Origin: Candidatus Eiseniibacteriota bacterium
Lineage (GTDB): Bacteria > Eisenbacteria > RBG-16-71-46 > JABDJR01
Direction of reading: 5' to 3'
NCBI GenBank assembly: GCA_963783375.1
Contig: CAWANH010000028.1
Location: 672,001 to 736,000 of the forward strand
Length of the DNA: 64,000 nt
Position numbers and translations under genes: made by a program. Shown here piece by piece: positions 8,936 to 16,032 of this stretch. A model generated the notes under the pieces. That model saw only the letters and a list, made by a program, of their open reading frames with translations. It made no database searches and was not told the DNA's origin. The stretch's first letter is position 1, and each line of letters opens with the position of its first letter.

Positions 8936-9397
8936 GTGCGACTACTGGACTACCTGGACCCCGAATGCGTTCGCGTGGACCCGTCCAAGCTGGACAAGGA
9001 GTCCACCCTCCGTTTTCTGGTGGACCTCGTGGTGGAGCAGGGCGTGGTTCGGGACGCGGACCGGCTCCTGGAGGCGCTTCGCCGCCGGGAGGAGGTGGTC
9101 TCGACCGGGGTGGGGAACGGGGTGGCCATCCCCCACGCCGATCTCCCGGAGATCGAGGCCCCGCGGCTCGCCCTCGGTATCTTTCCCAACGGAGTGGACT
9201 TCGACGCGCTGGACGAGGAGCCGGTCTACTCGGTGTTCCTCCTCCTCGGCACCCCGCGCACCCCGGGGCTCCACATGAAGATCCTGGCCCGGATCGCCCG
9301 CCTCAGCAAGGACACGGAATTCTCCGACGGCCTTCGTAGCGCCAAGGACGCCCGGGCGGCGCTGGAAACCCTCGAACGGGTGGAATCCCGGCATTAG
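8936..9397 (+). CDS. PTS EIIA (PtsN/fructose-type) domain protein
   Basis: RREEVVSTGVGNGVAIPHA with phospho-His; GVDFDALD; HMKILARIARL. Confidence 0.9.
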   Translation: MRLLDYLDPECVRVDPSKLDKESTLRFLVDLVVEQGVVRDADRLLEALRRREEVVSTGVGNGVAIPHADLPEIEAPRLALGIFPNGVDFDALDEEPVYSVFLLLGTPRTPGLHMKILARIARLSKDTEFSDGLRSAKDARAALETLERVESRH

Positions 9398-9406
9398 GAG
9401 ACCGGC

Positions 9407-9748
9407 GTGAAACTCTTCGTCTACATCCTCAACCGGCCGGAGAAGCTCGAGGAGATCATGGCCGGTTTCGTGGAGATCGGCATCACCGGGGCCACGATCG
9501 TGGACAGCGTCGGCATGGGGCGCATCCTGTCCCGCGACGTGCCGATCTTCGCCGGGTTCCAATCGCTCCTGAGCGGAAGCCGTCCCTACAACAAGACCAT
9601 CCTCTCGGTGGTGGACGACGACGACAAAGTGGAACGCGCTCTGCGTCTGATCGAGGAGCTGTGCGGCTCCTTCGATGACGCGGGGGCGGGAATCGCCTTC
9701 ACCCTGCCGCTGGATCGTGTCCACGGGTTGAAGCCCGAGATTCGCTGA
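9407..9748 (+). CDS. PII-like signalling protein
   Basis: 113 aa; GITGATIVDSVGMG and GIAFTLPL, PII-fold pattern; RBS AGGAG. Confidence 0.8.
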   Translation: MKLFVYILNRPEKLEEIMAGFVEIGITGATIVDSVGMGRILSRDVPIFAGFQSLLSGSRPYNKTILSVVDDDDKVERALRLIEELCGSFDDAGAGIAFTLPLDRVHGLKPEIR

Positions 9749-9773
9749 GAACGACCCCCGGAATCCGGAGGCC

Positions 9774-10988
9774 ATGAACGCTCTCGTCGCCCTCATCCTC
9801 ATCGGCGCCCTCGGCTTGCTCTTCGGCCGGTTCCTCTTTCTGCGCCCGCGTCCGGGCTCCTGGCTCGACCGCTTCTTCCTGTCCGGCGCCGAATTCCTGG
9901 TGTTGGGGGCCCTGATCGGTCCCCACGGCTTCGGCGTGCTGGATCTGACCGCGCTCCTGAAGCTCGAGCCGTTCGTGGTCCTGGCCCTCTCCTGGGTGGG
10001 GCTTCTCTTGGGGGTCCAGCTCCGGTTCCGCTACCTCGCCCGGTTCCCGTTCCGCTACTTCCAGGTGGCCTTCCTGGAGAGCACGGTGGCCCTGCTCGCG
10101 GCCTTCGCCCTCATGGGGTTGGTGTTCTCGATCTGGACCCCGGTGGGCGCGGGGATGCTCGACCGGTGGCGGGCGGCCCTGTGCCTGGGGGCGGTGGCGG
10201 CGTTGAGTTCGCCCACCGAGGCCGCGCTGCACAATCCCGGCGTCTCCCACGCGGGACACGCGGCCGGGCTCCTGCGCTTCGTCCCCGCCGTCGATCCCCT
10301 GGTGGCGTTGGCCGGCCTCGCCGCCCTCTTCGGTTTCTGGCACGTCTCGCTGCAGTCTCCGGGGGCGCTTCTGGGAGCCTGGGGCTGGATTGCGGCCTCG
10401 GTGGGGGGAGGGGCGGTGCTGGGGGCGGCCTTCCTTCTCCTGCTCCGGCCGGCCCGGGATCCGGACGAGGTGGTGCTGGTGGTGCTGGGGATGGCGCTCT
10501 TCTCCGGGGGTCTGGCCTCGGTCTTCCATCTCTCCCCCCTGGTGGTGTGCCTGGTCGAGGGGTTGGTGATCGGGAACTGGCGCCAGGAGGAGGGGCGGCT
10601 GATCCACATGTTCCTCCGCCTGGAGCGGCCGCTCTACATCGCGCTCCTGGTCCTGGCCGGGGCGGCGTGGCGCTTCGACGAACCCTGGGGGTACGTCCTG
10701 GCCGGGATGTTTCTTGCCGTGCGGGTGGCGGCCAAATTCCTGGGAACCCGCATCGCGTTGACCCTGACCCCGCTCCCCTTCCGGCCCCCGGAACGCTGGT
10801 GGCTGGGGCTGCTTCCCCAGGGGGCGATGGCGGTGGCGCTGGCGGTGAGCTACTTCGTGGTGTACCGGGATCCTCTGGCCGAGCGTGTGTTCTCCGCGGT
10901 GCTGGTGAGCACGGTGCTGTTGACCCTGGTGTCGGGGCGCCTGGTGCAACGGGCGCTGGAAACCGACTCCGAGGGACCGGCGCAGTGA
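9774..10988 (+). CDS. Cation:proton antiporter-like membrane protein (divergent CPA2)
   Basis: About 12 TM; GALIGPHGFGVL; GLLPQGAMAVALA. Confidence 0.75.
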   Translation: MNALVALILIGALGLLFGRFLFLRPRPGSWLDRFFLSGAEFLVLGALIGPHGFGVLDLTALLKLEPFVVLALSWVGLLLGVQLRFRYLARFPFRYFQVAFLESTVALLAAFALMGLVFSIWTPVGAGMLDRWRAALCLGAVAALSSPTEAALHNPGVSHAGHAAGLLRFVPAVDPLVALAGLAALFGFWHVSLQSPGALLGAWGWIAASVGGGAVLGAAFLLLLRPARDPDEVVLVVLGMALFSGGLASVFHLSPLVVCLVEGLVIGNWRQEEGRLIHMFLRLERPLYIALLVLAGAAWRFDEPWGYVLAGMFLAVRVAAKFLGTRIALTLTPLPFRPPERWWLGLLPQGAMAVALAVSYFVVYRDPLAERVFSAVLVSTVLLTLVSGRLVQRALETDSEGPAQ

Positions 10989-11013
10989 GGCGGGCCGGCG
11001 GGGGGACCCGGGG

Positions 11014-12366
11014 TTGAGCCGGGTATCGAGATGGGCGACCGGGGCCTCGGTGAGCCGGCTCTACGCCGCACTCCTCCTGGTGGGGCTCATGGCCCTGGCC
11101 CGCTGGAACCCCCTCCGGGACCTGGGCGACCTCGGCCACCAGGCCACGGTGAGCCTCGGATTCGTGCTCATCTTCGGCTACCTGGCCGGACACCTCGCGC
11201 GCATGGTCCGCCTCCCCCGGATCACCGGCTACATCCTGGCCGGGATCCTGTGCGGCCCGTACCTGGGCGGCTTTCTGACCCAGCCGGTGGTGAAGGGACT
11301 ACAGCTCATCGACGACCTCGCCCTGGCGTTGATCGCCTTCACCGCGGGAGGCGAGCTTCGGTTGGAGAGCATCCGCCCCCGGCTGAAGAGCATCCTCACC
11401 ATCACCGTCATGCAGACCGGGGTGGTTTTCGTGGGCATGATCGCGGCGGTCGTGGCCCTGGCCGGCGCCCTTCCGTTCCTGGACGGAAAGCCCTTCGTCT
11501 CCGTGCTCGCCGTCGCGTTCCTGTTCGGTCTCTTCGGGGTTGCGAACTCCCCGGCCACCGCGGTGGCCATCATCAACGAGTACCGCTCCCGGGGCCCCTT
11601 CACCGACACCGTCCTCGGGGTCACCGTGCTCAAGGACGTGGTGGTGCTGATCCTCATCACCCTCATCCTCCCCCTGATCCGGGTGATGGTGGTCCCCGCC
11701 GCGAGTTTCGACGTCCACTTCATCCTCGACCTGGCGTGGGAGATCGGGGGGTCTCTGGTGGGAGGGGTGATCCTGGGCCTCCTGGTCACCCAGTACATGC
11801 GGGGGGTGGGGGCGGTCCTCCCGCTCTTCATCGTGGGGGTGTCGATCCTGGTCTCCCAGGTGGCCCGTCAGTTCCATCTCGAGGCGCTTCTCCTCTGCAT
11901 GGTGGCGGGGTTCGTGATCGAGAACACCACCAGCTACGGCGATCGCTTCATCCAGGCCATCGAGCGGAGCGCGCTCCCGGTCTACGTGGTGTTCTTCGCC
12001 ATCGGCGGCGCGTCGCTCGACCTGGGCGCGGTGCGGATCACCTGGATGGTCACCCTGATCCTGGTGGTGTGGCGGGCGGTCCTGATCCTGGGGGCCACCG
12101 CCTGGGGAGAGCGCCTCTCCGGAGGGAAGAACGCGCCGGTGATGCGGCTGGGCTGGCTCGGGTTCCTGGCCCAGGCCGGGGTCACTCTCGGGCTGGCCTC
12201 CATCGTGGCCCGGAAGTTTCCGGACTGGGGTCCCGACGTGAAGATGATCGCCCTGGCGCTGATCGCGGTGAACCAGATCGTGGGACCGGTGGGATTCCGG
12301 TTCGCCATCCTCCGGAGCGGGGAATCGCGGGCGGAGGAAAACCGGGAGGCCGCGGGCGAGGTTTGA
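11014..12366 (+). CDS. Cation:proton antiporter (CPA2 family)
   Basis: LPRITGYILAGILCGP; NSPATAVAII; VLKDV; FLAQAGVTLGLA. Confidence 0.85.
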   Translation: MSRVSRWATGASVSRLYAALLLVGLMALARWNPLRDLGDLGHQATVSLGFVLIFGYLAGHLARMVRLPRITGYILAGILCGPYLGGFLTQPVVKGLQLIDDLALALIAFTAGGELRLESIRPRLKSILTITVMQTGVVFVGMIAAVVALAGALPFLDGKPFVSVLAVAFLFGLFGVANSPATAVAIINEYRSRGPFTDTVLGVTVLKDVVVLILITLILPLIRVMVVPAASFDVHFILDLAWEIGGSLVGGVILGLLVTQYMRGVGAVLPLFIVGVSILVSQVARQFHLEALLLCMVAGFVIENTTSYGDRFIQAIERSALPVYVVFFAIGGASLDLGAVRITWMVTLILVVWRAVLILGATAWGERLSGGKNAPVMRLGWLGFLAQAGVTLGLASIVARKFPDWGPDVKMIALALIAVNQIVGPVGFRFAILRSGESRAEENREAAGEV

Positions 12367-12429
12367 CACGCCCCTCCCCAGGGGCTAATCTGTTCGCGTT
12401 TCACCGAATAGACGCAAACCGCTCGCCGG

Positions 12430-13080
12430 GTGAGGACCCTCCCCATGATGGATCGAAACGCAGGATCGCCCTCCCACGGGGACGGGCCGGGGACCGAAGA
12501 CGCCCAGTCCGGGCGCCTGAGCCGTTTCCTGGCTCTGGTCCTCCGGCACCGGGCCCACCAGTTCCAGCTTACGGTCGACGACGAGGGGTTCGTGGCCATC
12601 GAGCCGCTCCTGGAACTCGCCCACACGCGCCAGGGTCTGGAAGAGGTGAGCCGGGCGGATCTCGAGGCCCTGGCCGACAAGCCGGGTCGCAAGCGTTTCG
12701 AGATCACCGGGGAGTCCATCCGCGCCACCTACGGCCATTCGTTTCATCGCCCCATCCGCTATCCGGACGCGTCGCCCCCCGAGCGGCTGTACCTGGCCGT
12801 GCCCCGCTCCCAGCTCCCGGACATCCGGCTTCAGGGGCTCCGGCCCGAGGGGCGCCAGTACGTCCACCTCTCCGAAGAGCGGGAAGAGGCCGAGGAGGTG
12901 GGGCGGCACAAGTCCACCGAGGTCACGGTGGTGGAGGTGCTGGCCCGCGAGGCGTCGGAGAACGGCATCCCGTTCCATCGGCCCACCGACGGGCTCTACC
13001 TGGCCGCGCAGGTTCCCGCCCGCTTCCTCGACGTCGAAGTGCGCTTCGGTCGGAAGCCGCGGAAGGGTCGCCGGCGCTAG
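12430..13080 (+). CDS. kptA: RNA 2'-phosphotransferase (Tpt1/KptA)
   Basis: LSRFLALVLRH, DDEGFV, KRFE, IRATYGHS, RQYVHLS; start may be ATG 12445. Confidence 0.88.
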   Translation: MRTLPMMDRNAGSPSHGDGPGTEDAQSGRLSRFLALVLRHRAHQFQLTVDDEGFVAIEPLLELAHTRQGLEEVSRADLEALADKPGRKRFEITGESIRATYGHSFHRPIRYPDASPPERLYLAVPRSQLPDIRLQGLRPEGRQYVHLSEEREEAEEVGRHKSTEVTVVEVLAREASENGIPFHRPTDGLYLAAQVPARFLDVEVRFGRKPRKGRRR

Positions 13081-13292
13081 CGTCCCGCCCCGGCCGGTCG
13101 TGATCCAGACAGACGATCCGGTCGGTCATATATGGGGCCGGCCTCCGGAGTCTCCCCCGATTCCGCCGACGTTTCCCGCGTCGCATCCTTTCCGTGGATT
13201 TGCCGATGCCAAATATTGAATTAGGCTCACCCCGGGCGGATCCCGATAATGGGGGTGTATCAAGGGAAGACGGGAAGGGTGGTTGGAAAAGC

Positions 13293-13467
13293 CCGGGGAG
13301 AGAAAACCCCGGTCCCGGGCCCTGAACGGAGCGGGCAAGGGTGGTGCGGGGGATGTGAGGTTTCGTTCGGGCTCTCGACTCCCGAACTCTGGGTGGTAGA
13401 GGTGCGGTGGGGTGGTGACGGGTGGTGCGGTGCGGGGTGGTGATGGGATGCCTCCTCGGGGCCCGGG
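13293..13467 (+). ncRNA. Putative structured RNA module 1 (GGGTGGT-repeat-containing)
   Basis: Hairpin CCGGGG-AGAGAAAA-CCCCGG; 12-bp helix 13314-13325/13456-13467 (one G-U); inner GTTCGGG/CCCGAAC hairpin. Confidence 0.5.
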
Positions 13468-13472
13468 TAGAT

Positions 13473-13577
13473 AGAAAGGGACGCTGACCCAGCCTTTCAG
13501 GATTCGTTCGGGGGTTCAAACCCCTGACGAGCCGAAGCCGGGCAAAGGGCAAGAAAGGCAGGCGTCCCTTTCTCTTT
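13473..13577 (+). ncRNA. Putative structured RNA module 2
   Basis: 12-bp helix AGAAAGGGACGC/GCGTCCCTTTCT (13473-13484/13562-13573); GCCTTTC/GAAAGGC; inner hairpin; U-rich tail. Confidence 0.5.
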
Positions 13578-13714
13578 GCCGTTACAGACGACAAGAATTG
13601 TATGGTTGCATTCATATTCAGACTTCGCGATCTAAATAGTGTTCATAATCCTGTATTTCGCATAGCGGGATTCTGAATTGGCCATCCGACCGATTTGCCG
13701 TCACCATACTGTCA

Positions 13715-13901
13715 AGTCGGGGTGAGACAACCTCGACTGCGGGCCCTGATAAACCGGGACTGGAAGAGCGGACGCAGGAGTTCGGGACGTTCAGGAGGTT
13801 CGCCTCCTGAAAACGGGATGCATGGGGGTACCGTCCCGAACGGGATGCCGAGGAGACCTCGACACCCGGTTTGCCGCAAGGCAGGGGCCCGCAAATTTTT
13901 T
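13715..13901 (+). ncRNA. Putative structured RNA module 3 (multi-branch, about 185 nt)
   Basis: Seven helices including UUCG- and GCAA-capped hairpins; closing helix TGCGGGCCC/GGGCCCGCA followed by T6. Confidence 0.62.
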
Positions 13902-14029
13902 GCCCAAAATCATGGTTTTTACTTTTATAGCATGAAATCGCAATCGGGGCGGCGGTCCTCGAATCTCCCTTGGCCCGTCCAGCGCGCCGCCCGTGACGCG
14001 CCGCTCCGACCGGAGATGCCGGCCGCCGG

Positions 14030-15241
14030 CTACTCCGCGTAGCTGATGCGGTAGATCGCCCCCGCGCGATCGTCGGAGACCAGGAGCGCCCCGTCCGGCA
14101 TGACCTGGACGTCCACCGGCCGCCCCCAGGCCTGGGCTCCCTGGAGCCACCCCCGGGCGAAAACGTCGTAGCTCACCGCCTCGCCGTTCTCCACCCGGAC
14201 CGCGGTCACCCGGTAGCCGATGGGCCGGGAACGGTTCCAGGAGCCGTGCTCGGCGATGAAGACCGCGTTCCGGTACGCCTCGGGAAACATGCGCCCGGTG
14301 TAGAAGCGCATGCCCAGGGACGCCACGTGGGGCCCGAGTTCCCGGGCCGCCGGGGTGAACTCCGAGCAACGGTGTCCGGAGCCGTACTGGGGATCGGGGA
14401 TCTCCCGGCCGTAGCAGTGGGGAAACCCGAAGTTCATGCCCGGCTTGGGGGCATGGTTGAGCTCGTCGGGGGGGACGTCGTCGCCCATCCAGTCACGCCC
14501 GTTGTCGGTGAACCAGAGGTCCCCGGTCCGGGGATCCCAGTCGAAGCCCACCGAGTTCCGGATCCCCCGGGCGTAGACCTCCCAGTCGCTCCCGTCGGGG
14601 TTCATCCGGGTGATCGACGCGTAGGGGTCTCCCCGGTCGCACACGTTGCAGGGCGCGCCGACCGGCACGTAGAGCTTCCCGTCGGGACCGAACCGTATGA
14701 ACTTCCAGCCGTGGGAGCGGTCGGCGGGAAAGACGTCGCTCACGGTGACCGGAGCGGGGGGGGCCTCCAGGCGGGCCTCGATGTCGTCGTAGCGAATGAC
14801 CCGGCCGATCTCCGCGACGTAGAGCGCGCCGTCGTGAACCGCCACCCCGTTGGGGGTGTCCAGCCCCTCGGCGATCACCCACGTCCGGTCCGCCCGGCCG
14901 TCCCGGTTGGTATCCCGGACCGCGTAGACCCGGTCCTCGCCCCGGGTGCCCACGAAGAGGGTCCCGCCCGGCCCGAGAGCCATCGAGCGGGCTCCGGGAA
15001 GACCGGCGGCGTAAACCGCGATCCGAAACCCCGGGGGAAGCTGGACCCGGTCGAGGGGCAGGTCGCCCCGGGCAGCCGACGCGGCGTCGCCTCGGGAATC
15101 GGCTTGGGAACAGGCCAGGGCGGACAGGGTGAGGACCGCGATCAGGAGCGCCGCGTGCCGCAGTGATCCGCCCGGGGTCCTGGACCACGCCGTGCGCCGT
15201 CCCGGACCGGCAGTCGCTCCGAACGGCGCCGCCCGTCGCAT
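14030..15241 (-). CDS. PQQ-dependent sugar/sorbosone dehydrogenase family lipoprotein
   Basis: HGWKFIRFGPDGKLYVPVGAPCNVC, GIRNSVG, HGSWNR, GRPVDV; lipobox-like ALAC. Confidence 0.92.
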   Translation of the reverse strand: MRRAAPFGATAGPGRRTAWSRTPGGSLRHAALLIAVLTLSALACSQADSRGDAASAARGDLPLDRVQLPPGFRIAVYAAGLPGARSMALGPGGTLFVGTRGEDRVYAVRDTNRDGRADRTWVIAEGLDTPNGVAVHDGALYVAEIGRVIRYDDIEARLEAPPAPVTVSDVFPADRSHGWKFIRFGPDGKLYVPVGAPCNVCDRGDPYASITRMNPDGSDWEVYARGIRNSVGFDWDPRTGDLWFTDNGRDWMGDDVPPDELNHAPKPGMNFGFPHCYGREIPDPQYGSGHRCSEFTPAARELGPHVASLGMRFYTGRMFPEAYRNAVFIAEHGSWNRSRPIGYRVTAVRVENGEAVSYDVFARGWLQGAQAWGRPVDVQVMPDGALLVSDDRAGAIYRISYAE

Positions 15242-16032
15242 CAGTCCTCCGATCCGCGGAAGAGGGTGAGGAAGGCGTTCACCAGGGACTCGTGGCCGGC
15301 CACCAGGTGGGAGCTTTCCCGGGTGATATCCCGGGCCTCGTGATCCACCATGATCCCGCCCGCCTCCTCGATGAGCATCCAGCCGCCGGCGATGTCCCAC
15401 CAGGCCTGGGGGGTCGCCTTCCCCGCGAAGAGCAGGTCGAACCGGCCGGCGGCCACGTAGGCCAGCTCCAGGGCGATGGTGCCGAGCTTCCGGGTCTTGG
15501 AGAACCGGCGGTGGAGCTGGTGGACGAAGCCGATCTTCCGGAGGAACTGCCCCTCCGCCGAGGTCTGCATGCTGAGGGCGGCCTGGTCGATGTCCCGGAC
15601 GTCGCTCAAGGTGATGGGCTTCGATCCGAGCCAGGCGCCGGCGCCTCGGAAGGCGTGGAAGTGCTCCTCACGCAGCGGGTCCATGACGTGCCCCACGACC
15701 GGCTTCCCGCGCTGGACCGCCCCGATCGAGATCGAGAAGATCGGGATCCCCCGGGTGAAGTTCAGGGTGCCGTCGATGGGATCGATGAACCAGATCGTCT
15801 CGGCGTCGCCCTCGGTGTGGCCGGTCTCCTCGCCGATGATGGCGTGATCGGGCCAGGCGCCGAGGATCGCCTCCACCGCCGCCTTCTCGATGGCCCGATC
15901 GGTCGCGGTCACCGGCTGGCCCGGCGACTTGTACATCACCGGGCCGGGGTTCTCGAATCCTTCCCGAGCCATGGCGGCGAGCCGGGGCATGAGCCGGGTC
16001 AGGAAGGCGTCCATCTCGCGGGGATCGGTCAC
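15241..16032 (-). CDS. Inositol monophosphatase family protein
   Basis: GEE, WFIDPIDGTLNF, WDIAGG. Confidence 0.92.
   Translation of the reverse strand: MTDPREMDAFLTRLMPRLAAMAREGFENPGPVMYKSPGQPVTATDRAIEKAAVEAILGAWPDHAIIGEETGHTEGDAETIWFIDPIDGTLNFTRGIPIFSISIGAVQRGKPVVGHVMDPLREEHFHAFRGAGAWLGSKPITLSDVRDIDQAALSMQTSAEGQFLRKIGFVHQLHRRFSKTRKLGTIALELAYVAAGRFDLLFAGKATPQAWWDIAGGWMLIEEAGGIMVDHEARDITRESSHLVAGHESLVNAFLTLFRGSED

What the first reader, a model, noticed from the sequence alone, without database searches (positions are those of the whole stretch)
13256..13901. Three related, highly structured RNA modules downstream of kptA: candidate new ncRNA family
Seen: about 950 bp with no credible CDS between convergent genes (kptA ends 13080, dehydrogenase ends 14030), so these are unlikely to be riboswitch leaders. 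Modules 1 and 3 share an architecture: a GGGG hairpin with an 8-nt loop (AGAGAAAA / TGAGACAA), then a closing helix beginning GGGCCCTGA, an internal GTTCGGG/CCCGAAC helix and a GGGATGCC motif. Module 2 shares CTGA after its closing strand, GTTCGGG, and the AAGGCAGG 3' junction with module 3. G-U pairs, UUCG and GCAA tetraloops and U-rich tails all point to the + strand. Stems differ between copies but still pair. Inference: paralogous stand-alone ncRNAs, or one RNA of about 650 nt, that I cannot assign to a known family. The position next to an RNA 2'-phosphotransferase raises a possible RNA-processing link (speculative).
Basis: partly seen in the sequence, partly recalled or inferred. Interest (0 to 1): 0.85.

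Follow-up and report, generated by a model that had tools for sequence, protein, structure and literature searches.

The report
Twin noncoding RNAs, likely protein decoys
Behind kptA, one branch of the uncultured Eisenbacteria keeps two conserved non-coding RNA genes that match no Rfam family and share one promoter-like element, and they likely act as decoys that soak up G/U-binding RRM proteins in a bacterium where no Hfq or CsrA gene was found.

Summary
The RNA call holds, but the units are two, not three.

RNA-A (about 13256-13578; modules 1+2) and RNA-B (about 13714-13901; module 3) each follow the same 41-bp upstream element plus a -10 box. No other site in the genome scores near it.

The locus is conserved in 6 of 8 genomes of one Ca. 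Eisenbacteria family. The closing helices covary, and RNA-B has a 90-nt core as conserved as 6S RNA. There is no Rfam hit, and 6S, SRP, RNase P and tmRNA lie elsewhere. RNA-B appears in deep metatranscriptome contigs from two studies.

Module 1 is not highly structured. It is a helix-closed, G-rich loop with repeated (G/U)G(A/G)UG motifs of variable number, the anatomy expected of a sponge RNA. CsrA, Hfq and Ro60 were not found, but five RRM proteins were, and one RRM clade carries similar tracts in its leader.

Best reading (0.35): decoys for RRM proteins. Main rivals: a sponge for a C-rich sRNA, or a raiA-like folded RNA. The kptA link is not supported. This is a new family with a narrow range and an untested mechanism.

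The parts
12445..13080 (+). kptA/Tpt1-like RNA 2'-phosphotransferase gene: upstream neighbour, not part of the RNA system
   Evidence: PF01885, E 1e-26; below the NCBIfam equivalog cut-offs; synteny not obligatory
13184..13224 (+). Upstream element of RNA-A: TG(G/T)AWTT-like and TG(A/G)ATT-like repeats 22 bp apart; inferred activator site
   Evidence: PWM score 55 here, 51 at RNA-B, next best 16 in the genome; 13 sites in 6 of 206 genomes, all in front of A or B. Both motifs were derived from these sites.
13221..13250 (+). Predicted weak -35 (13221-13226) and -10 (13245-13250) of RNA-A, 18-bp spacer; start predicted near 13256
   Evidence: Sequence; conserved in 7 orthologues; not found by the strict sigma-70 scan
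13256..13292 (+). RNA-A 5' leader, G/U-rich, with invariant GGGUGG
   Evidence: Alignment A5
13293..13467 (+). RNA-A module 1: hairpin 13293-13312, closing helix 13314-13325/13456-13467, inner helix 13365-13371/13381-13387, about 130-nt G-rich interior with repeated (G/U)G(A/G)UG
   Evidence: Closing helix kept without mismatch in 7 of 7 orthologues, with two-sided changes at 4 positions; interior 99-130 nt; motif counts
13474..13578 (+). RNA-A module 2: stable three-way-junction domain (12-bp closing helix, variable long hairpin, small hairpin with GGGCAAAG loop) and pyrimidine tail
   Evidence: z -6.4; 7 of 27 consensus pairs with two-sided changes; replaced by other sequence in G052
13641..13707 (+). 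Second copy of the upstream element (13641-13681) with predicted -35 (13678-13683) and -10 (13702-13707) for RNA-B
13714..13901 (+). RNA-B (module 3): 5' hairpin 13716-13737, closing helix 13739-13746/13884-13892, near-invariant 90-nt core 13765-13854, GNRA hairpin, U tail
   Evidence: z -4.4 to -5.5; core 92% identical to G048 and G051, against 91/87% for 6S and 68% for kptA in G051; in RNA-library contigs
14030..15400 (-). Convergent glucose/sorbosone dehydrogenase-like gene (downstream neighbour; start uncertain)
   Evidence: PF07995/PF23500

Best explanation
The region holds two tandem, conserved non-coding RNA genes with a shared promoter-like element, and they likely work as decoys: one activator would switch both on, and their exposed G/U-rich repeats would titrate single-domain RRM (Rbp) RNA-binding proteins away from mRNA leaders. 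Shown: conservation, covarying helices, the shared upstream element, the repeats, presence in RNA libraries, RRM genes present, CsrA/Hfq/Ro60 not found. Inferred: exact transcript ends, co-regulation, high abundance, sponge action, and the RRM proteins as partner. In this model RNA-A is the flexible multi-site sponge, capped by a stable 3' domain. RNA-B is a diverged, compactly folded paralogue presenting four GGA(C/U)G sites; its near-invariant core is the part the model explains least.
For: (1) Two stand-alone genes behind one element found nowhere else. This is the layout of CsrB/CsrC or RsmY/Z pairs (recalled).
(2) The module 1 interior changes in length and sequence while its helices covary. 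It keeps 5-13 (G/U)G(A/G)UG motifs per RNA-A, against about 2-3 expected in module 1 from mononucleotide shuffles. The motifs are predicted more unpaired than the rest in 5 of 5 orthologues folded. Of 4 genome windows with 11 or more such motifs in 200 nt, the other 3 are antisense to predicted coding genes.
(3) CsrA 0 of 8 in the family against 101 of 121 in the class sample; Hfq and Ro60 not found in G000; RRM genes in 8 of 8 family genomes (5 in G000) and 0 of 2 in the sister family.
(4) In one RRM clade, 5 of 6 members have a module-1-like G/U tract in the leader; in four of them (G000, G050, G049, one G051 copy) it sits just behind a promoter-like -10. Under a Markov model trained on module 1 only, they rank above all, top 0.35%, 6%, 9% and 10% of 2299 G000 upstream regions, against 3 of 19 other RRM leaders within 10%.
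(5) Bacteroides RbpB binds ssRNA, prefers a G/U/A motif, rejects a C/U-rich one, and binds multicopy sRNAs (passages of 10.1101/2021.04.27.441718, PMC12119571, PMC11697453).
(6) RNA-B is in contigs of depth 48-430 (X2) and 334 (X3).
Against: (1) No binding data. The motif was chosen after looking, and GUGG and GGA are not enriched over dinucleotide shuffles.
(2) The genome's own RRM leader ranks only 235 of 2299, and antisense strands score as high as sense strands. The leader tracts are predicted mostly paired (unpaired 0.26-0.40).
(3) G048 has both RNAs but no member of that RRM clade, and G047/G053 have RRM genes without the RNAs.
(4) RNA-B has only 2-3 of the G/U motifs and a near-invariant core, unlike the variable sequence expected of a sponge. 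It is the RNA seen deepest in the libraries; RNA-A was seen only at depth 2 in 1 of 4 runs laid.
(5) Other G-rich binders (the one cold-shock protein; KH proteins, not searched) are not excluded.
(6) Only six genomes and two metagenome contigs, all close kin.
Confidence: 0.35

Rival explanations
1. RNA-A (and perhaps B) is an RNA sponge that base-pairs with C-rich small RNAs, notably the conserved sRNA downstream of lexA in the same genome, by mimicking their G-rich targets.
For: That sRNA has two invariant C-rich bulges in 6 of 6 orthologues aligned. RNA-A pairs with the first at a net -9.2 to -12.5 kcal/mol in 5 of 5 genomes. In G000 only 4 of 100 dinucleotide shuffles and 1 of 150 random upstream regions do as well. 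The module-2 loop is complementary over 6 nt to the second bulge in 4 of 5 genomes, and RNA-B holds two invariant hexamers complementary to the first bulge.
Against: The pairing site in RNA-A moves between orthologues. There is no compensatory change: G048 alters the seed without a matching change, and G051 alters the module-2 loop while its sRNA is unchanged. Second-bulge and RNA-B pairings are mostly at shuffle level (5-8 of 12; 1 of 12 for G051 RNA-B with seed 1). G047 keeps the sRNA but lacks the RNAs. The partner was picked from an earlier AI note, and any G-rich RNA pairs with C-rich ones.
Confidence: 0.2
2. RNA-B is an abundant, compactly folded RNA in the manner of raiA/OLE/ROOL (protein scaffold, ligand binder or homo-oligomer), and RNA-A is a relaxed paralogue; neither is a simple sponge.
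For: The 90-nt core is 92% identical across genera, like 6S. Helices 4-7 hardly vary, a GNRA loop is conserved, and the invariant loop has two self-complementary hexamers (sequence). One heptamer has three possible partners within about 1-5 kcal/mol. Deep RNA contigs.
Against: Very narrow range: 5 of 151 class genomes, and none in phage, plasmid or viral collections. Invariant pairs give no covariation support. It does not explain the repeats of module 1.
Confidence: 0.2
3. They are trans-acting base-pairing regulators of mRNAs under a dedicated activator, as RNAIII, VR-RNA or csRNAs are (recalled).
For: Shared direct-repeat element just upstream of -35; invariant single-stranded stretches in RNA-B could be seeds.
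Against: The longest near-perfect antisense match of RNA-B in G000 (22 nt, E 0.01) covers the variable loop; other matches are at chance level. No conserved target was tested.
Confidence: 0.1
4. RNA-B is a second RNA-polymerase-binding RNA (6S-2 or Ms1-like).
For: About 185 nt, a closing stem, a central open region with a 3'-side hairpin, apparent abundance.
Against: No RF00013 match at E<=10. A canonical 6S (80 bits) lies after zapA in G000, and G048 and G051 have one too. The helical arms are short and branched.
Confidence: 0.06
5. The conservation reflects a small protein (an ATG-started frame of 25 or more codons inside the RNA-B core) or a KptA-linked RNA-repair role.
For: A frame starting MHGGTVPNGMP is open at the same place in the orthologues (40 aa in G049 and G051; 25 codons in G048, read). 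kptA is upstream in 5 of 6 genomes.
Against: Changes in that frame are mostly non-synonymous, the stop varies, there is no accessible ribosome-binding site, and the 50 nt upstream are equally invariant. No other frame is kept: anchor spacings shift by non-multiples of 3. kptA and the RNAs occur apart.
Confidence: 0.06

Closest known systems
CsrB/CsrC and RsmY/RsmZ protein-sponge sRNAs (mechanism seen in a passage of PMC12119571; details recalled)
   Same: Stand-alone paralogous RNAs with a shared upstream element and repeated short purine-rich motifs; RNA-B has four GGA(C/U)G (p 0.008-0.05 vs shuffles).
   Different: No CsrA in 8 of 8 family genomes; GGA not enriched and not in hairpin loops; no Rfam match; the repeats in RNA-A are G/U-rich.
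FopS/GibS sRNAs with RRM protein RbpB of Bacteroides thetaiotaomicron (PMC11697453, passages)
   Same: Paralogous sRNAs in a lineage without Hfq/CsrA that encodes several single-RRM proteins.
   Different: FopS are 14 short (about 65-70 nt) seed-plus-terminator RNAs that repress mRNAs by pairing. Here there are two long, multi-helix RNAs with no Rfam match.
raiA motif RNA; OLE, ROOL, GOLLD (PMC12968392, PMC12286853: search listing and abstract start only)
   Same: Abundant, stand-alone, sequence-conserved structured RNAs of unknown function; RNA-B is about the size of raiA (size recalled).
   Different: No Rfam match at E<=10; much narrower distribution; no pseudoknot demonstrated.
6S RNA (RF00013)
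   Same: Size and conservation level of RNA-B.
   Different: A canonical 6S is present elsewhere; no model match; branched rather than rod-shaped.

Membership tests
Any Rfam 15 family | Covariance-model score above the gathering threshold | tested here: not met
   0 hits in the window; best E 2.4 in 13000-14100; best E 0.06 in three relatives' loci
CsrB/RsmZ | Cognate CsrA/RsmA protein in the genome | tested here: not met
   0 of 8 family genomes, 101 of 121 class genomes
CsrB/RsmZ | Many GGA motifs, mostly in hairpin loops | tested here: not met
   GGA 9 observed vs 8.1 expected in RNA-B, 7 vs 8.7 in module 1; only GGA(C/U)G x4 in RNA-B is above shuffles
CsrB/RsmZ (works-like) | Paralogous stand-alone genes sharing an upstream activating element | tested here: met
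   the activator itself is not identified
CsrB/RsmZ (works-like) | Titration of an RNA-binding protein | not testable with these tools
   needs binding assays
6S RNA | RF00013 match, rod with central bubble; the genome's ssrS | tested here: not met
   No match; the true 6S is after zapA, 80 bits
6S/Ms1 | Binds RNA polymerase, templates pRNA | not testable with these tools
   only assembled contigs were available
Bacterial Y RNA | Ro60 (TROVE) protein in the genome, usually adjacent (recalled) | tested here: not met
   PF05731 not found in G000, 97% complete; no tRNA-like domain by ARAGORN
SRP RNA, RNase P RNA, tmRNA | Is the genome's copy of that housekeeping RNA | tested here: not met
   All three found elsewhere
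Riboswitch / T-box leader | Sits 5' of a same-strand gene | tested here: not met
   The downstream gene is convergent in G000, G050, G049, G048; G051 was not resolved
FopS | About 65-70 nt, 5' seed plus terminator, multicopy | tested here: not met
   About 320 and 185 nt, two copies per genome
RRM-sponge RNA (proposed) | Same motif in RRM-regulated leaders and in the RNA | tested here: inconclusive
   5 of 6 leaders of one clade in about the top 10%, but the own genome's only 235 of 2299 and tracts predicted paired

The most novel reading that the evidence does not exclude
A dedicated, signal-controlled pair of decoy RNAs for bacterial RRM proteins: a Csr-like circuit rebuilt from different parts (RRM proteins, G/U-repeat RNAs, their own activator) in a lineage where CsrA and Hfq are missing, with RNA-B an abundant folded RNP core.
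Probability: 0.3. Interest if true: 0.8.

Novelty: new variant of a known kind. Interest (0 to 1): 0.57.

Why it matters
How single-domain bacterial RRM proteins are controlled is an open question in lineages without Hfq or CsrA. These two RNAs, five small RRM proteins, a defined motif and a C-rich sRNA give a set that can be tested entirely in vitro. Even if the sponge model fails, RNA-B is an uncatalogued, apparently abundant RNA with a core conserved like 6S, suited to probing or cryo-EM. The limit is its range: two genera of one uncultured family.

Tried and rejected
- Missing-6S idea. One search found no 6S in G000, but that was a false negative of the genome search; the gene is after zapA. 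The same kind of search underlies the Hfq and Ro60 negatives, which were run on G000 only.
- CsrA sponge and Y RNA: partner proteins not found.
- Shine-Dalgarno mimic binding the 16S tail: sites no more frequent than in dinucleotide shuffles (p 0.2-0.85).
- G-quadruplex: a canonical three-tier pattern in 1 of 6 module-1 sequences (the G000 row was truncated there).
- Antisense to rRNA, tmRNA, RNase P, 6S or SRP: longest perfect duplex 11 nt, at chance level.
- The T-arm-like hairpin and the SRP-like stretch in module 2 are not conserved.
- Wider homologues: none in phages or plasmids or in two exact-pattern viral scans. 5 of 7 metagenome pattern hits were chance matches outside this locus. 11 of the 16 genomes matched had only short weak hits; five such loci were scanned with model R1 and none gave a convincing hit.
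- The pattern was mis-designed (it missed the own genome) and is not used.
- No cover of kptA or most flanking genes in the four runs laid is not counted as evidence.
- The PWM scan for a wider regulon found none.

Full report
OBSERVATION. Rfam gives no hit at gathering level in the window and nothing better than E 2.4 in the region. Modules 2 and 3 fold well beyond shuffles; module 1 does not (z about +2), because half of it is G. The lineage is Candidatus Eisenbacteria, from the source name of the kptA protein of a same-family genome.

HOMOLOGUES. A DNA search of 206 phylum genomes gave strong matches in G050, G049 and G048 (same genus) and G051 (same family); 11 other genomes had only short weak matches. 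G049's two copies are 99.7% identical over 8.6 kb and are probably an assembly duplicate. G052 (75% complete) has module 1 behind kptA, followed by a different 3' sequence and a contig end. Two of 7 metagenome pattern hits (L045, L048) are true copies. A covariance model of module 3 hits 5 of 151 class genomes, all in the family. Models of modules 2 and 3 find nothing convincing in G047, G052, G053 or the two sister-family genomes. So 6 of 8 family genomes carry at least part of the locus.

TWO GENES. The same motif precedes module 1 and module 3 in every genome that has them: a TG(A/G)ATT(A/G)G box, 20 bases, then a -10-like hexamer. Upstream it extends into a 41-bp element with a repeat 22 bp away. 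A weight matrix scores 55 and 51 at the two sites and at most 16 elsewhere in G000. An extended pattern with one mismatch allowed matches 13 sites in 6 of 206 genomes, all at these two places; the reversed control gives 0. Matrix and pattern were derived from these sites, so they show specificity, not independent discovery. The strict sigma-70 scan did not report them. The spacer between the genes varies from 170 to 263 nt. I infer two co-regulated genes: RNA-A (about 320 nt) and RNA-B (about 185 nt). A direct repeat just upstream of a weak -35 resembles response-regulator sites (recalled); the regulator is unknown.

STRUCTURE. In RNA-A the 5' hairpin and the closing helix of module 1 are kept without mismatch in 7 of 7 orthologues, with two-sided changes, around an interior of 99-130 nt that barely aligns. 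Module 2 shows two-sided changes in 7 of 27 consensus pairs. In RNA-B, 4 of 41 pairs change on both sides (5 of 500 shuffles reach this), all in the outer helices; the inner helices are invariant and so say nothing about pairing. With five related sequences this is modest support. The 90-nt core is 92% identical to G048 and G051, against 91% and 87% for 6S and 68% for kptA in G051. Modules 1 and 3 share the hairpin-plus-closing-helix frame, and the module-3 model hits module 1 weakly, so they are probably paralogous. Module 2 shows no such link. No reading frame is conserved across RNA-A. One short frame inside the RNA-B core is open in the orthologues but varies non-synonymously.

EXPRESSION. 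Eight metatranscriptome runs from seven studies hold words of the region; four were laid. RNA-B is covered by near-identical contigs of depth 48-430 in X2 (13732-13852), 334 in X3 (13725-13828) and 2-4 in X4. One contig of depth 2.2 in X1 spans 13301-13557 and bridges modules 1 and 2. Contigs give no strand, ends or level, the runs were found with this stretch, and the invariant core pools reads from related species. This shows presence in RNA libraries and only suggests abundance.

WHAT IT IS NOT. RNase P RNA, SRP RNA, tmRNA and 6S are all elsewhere in G000 (one search missed the 6S). Ro60 and Hfq were not found in G000. CsrA was found in 0 of 8 family genomes against 101 of 121 class genomes. 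kptA lies upstream in 5 of the 6 genomes, but G048 has the RNAs after OmpA-like and small genes, and G047 and G053 have kptA without them. A KptA link is therefore unsupported.

MECHANISM. A helix-closed, loosely folded loop with a variable number of short repeats, in co-regulated stand-alone paralogues, is what titrating RNAs look like. RNA-A has 5-13 (G/U)G(A/G)UG motifs, predicted more exposed than the rest. The family encodes 1-5 single-RRM proteins per genome (8 of 8; sister family 0 of 2). In a tree of 25 of the 26 RRM rows (one G050 row was not fetched), one weakly supported clade of 6 has similar tracts in the leaders of 5 members. A model trained only on module 1 ranks these 5 within about the top 10% of 2299 G000 upstream regions, against 3 of 19 other RRM leaders. 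Against this: the own genome's leader is only 235th, antisense strands score as high, the tracts are predicted largely paired, G048 lacks that clade, and RNA-B has few such motifs. Published bacterial RRM proteins bind single-stranded G/U/A motifs and multicopy sRNAs (passages of 10.1101/2021.04.27.441718, PMC12119571, PMC11697453, PMC12232666). One passage of PMC13370968 describes RbpB itself as sponging an sRNA. I put the RRM-decoy model at 0.35.

RIVALS. An earlier scan note (e1-756560) pointed to a C-rich sRNA behind lexA. I confirmed its conservation and two invariant C-rich bulges. RNA-A pairs with the first bulge better than 96 of 100 shuffles and 149 of 150 random upstream regions in G000, but the site moves between genomes and two natural changes are uncompensated: 0.2. 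A raiA-like folded RNA of other function explains RNA-B's invariant core best: 0.2. mRNA-pairing regulator 0.1, polymerase binder 0.06, small protein or KptA substrate 0.06. These are not exclusive, and A and B may differ. That both are real ncRNA genes I put near 0.9.

NOVELTY. No Rfam family matches. Four 17-nt core strings occur in no paper of the library. Searches for Eisenbacteria with noncoding RNA (1 paper listed) and for kptA/Tpt1 with structured RNA (9 listed) gave nothing relevant by title and abstract start. The scan's own index had no look-alike. I read no supplements, and supplementary lists from large candidate-RNA screens could hold this motif. raiA and the ornate RNAs were seen only as listings and abstract starts. 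Verdict: a real, uncatalogued pair of RNA genes, probably a new variant of the sponge-RNA kind, narrow in range and with an untested mechanism; interest 0.57.

Noticed in passing
G000:C28:424491 (- strand) leader; L149, L150, L152, L153: One RRM gene clade has a G/U-rich tract in its leader, in four of five cases just behind a promoter-like -10. Most RRM leaders also carry a YUCCGAR-like box that could pair with the ribosome-binding site (seen by eye; a similar box in cyanobacterial rbp genes is recalled).
   Followed up: partly
family f1 versus the class: CsrA is missing from 8 of 8 family genomes but present in 101 of 121 class genomes, while RRM genes are in 8 of 8 family and 0 of 2 sister-family genomes.
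   Followed up: partly
L116 (G000:C29, downstream of lexA, - strand): Conserved roughly 205-nt sRNA with two invariant C-rich bulges and a terminator, in 6 genomes aligned.
   Followed up: partly
L058 (G052), after module 1: Module 2 is replaced by an unrelated stem-loop; the contig ends there.
   Followed up: partly
window 13815-13845: The invariant loop of RNA-B holds two self-complementary hexamers (possible dimer contacts), and one heptamer can pair with three alternative partners.
   Followed up: partly
window 13819 onward, + strand: An ATG-started frame of 25 or more codons is open in the RNA-B orthologues but varies non-synonymously and has no fixed stop.
   Followed up: partly
window 8936-13080: kptA closes a same-strand run with a PTS-EIIA-like gene (recalled from sequence, not searched), a P-II-like gene and two Na+/H+-exchanger-like genes. 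The KptA scores below the NCBIfam cut-offs and has a basic C-terminal tail.
   Followed up: no
G000:C29:533224-533404 (L044): Canonical 6S RNA downstream of zapA, missed by the whole-genome family search.
   Followed up: yes
window 12963-12975 and 13838-13850: A 13-nt perfect complement between the kptA coding strand and RNA-B; not kept in L048, likely chance.
   Followed up: partly
G049 C1 and C6 (L065, L066): 8.6 kb including the locus is present twice at 99.7% identity, at contig ends; probably an assembly duplicate.
   Followed up: yes
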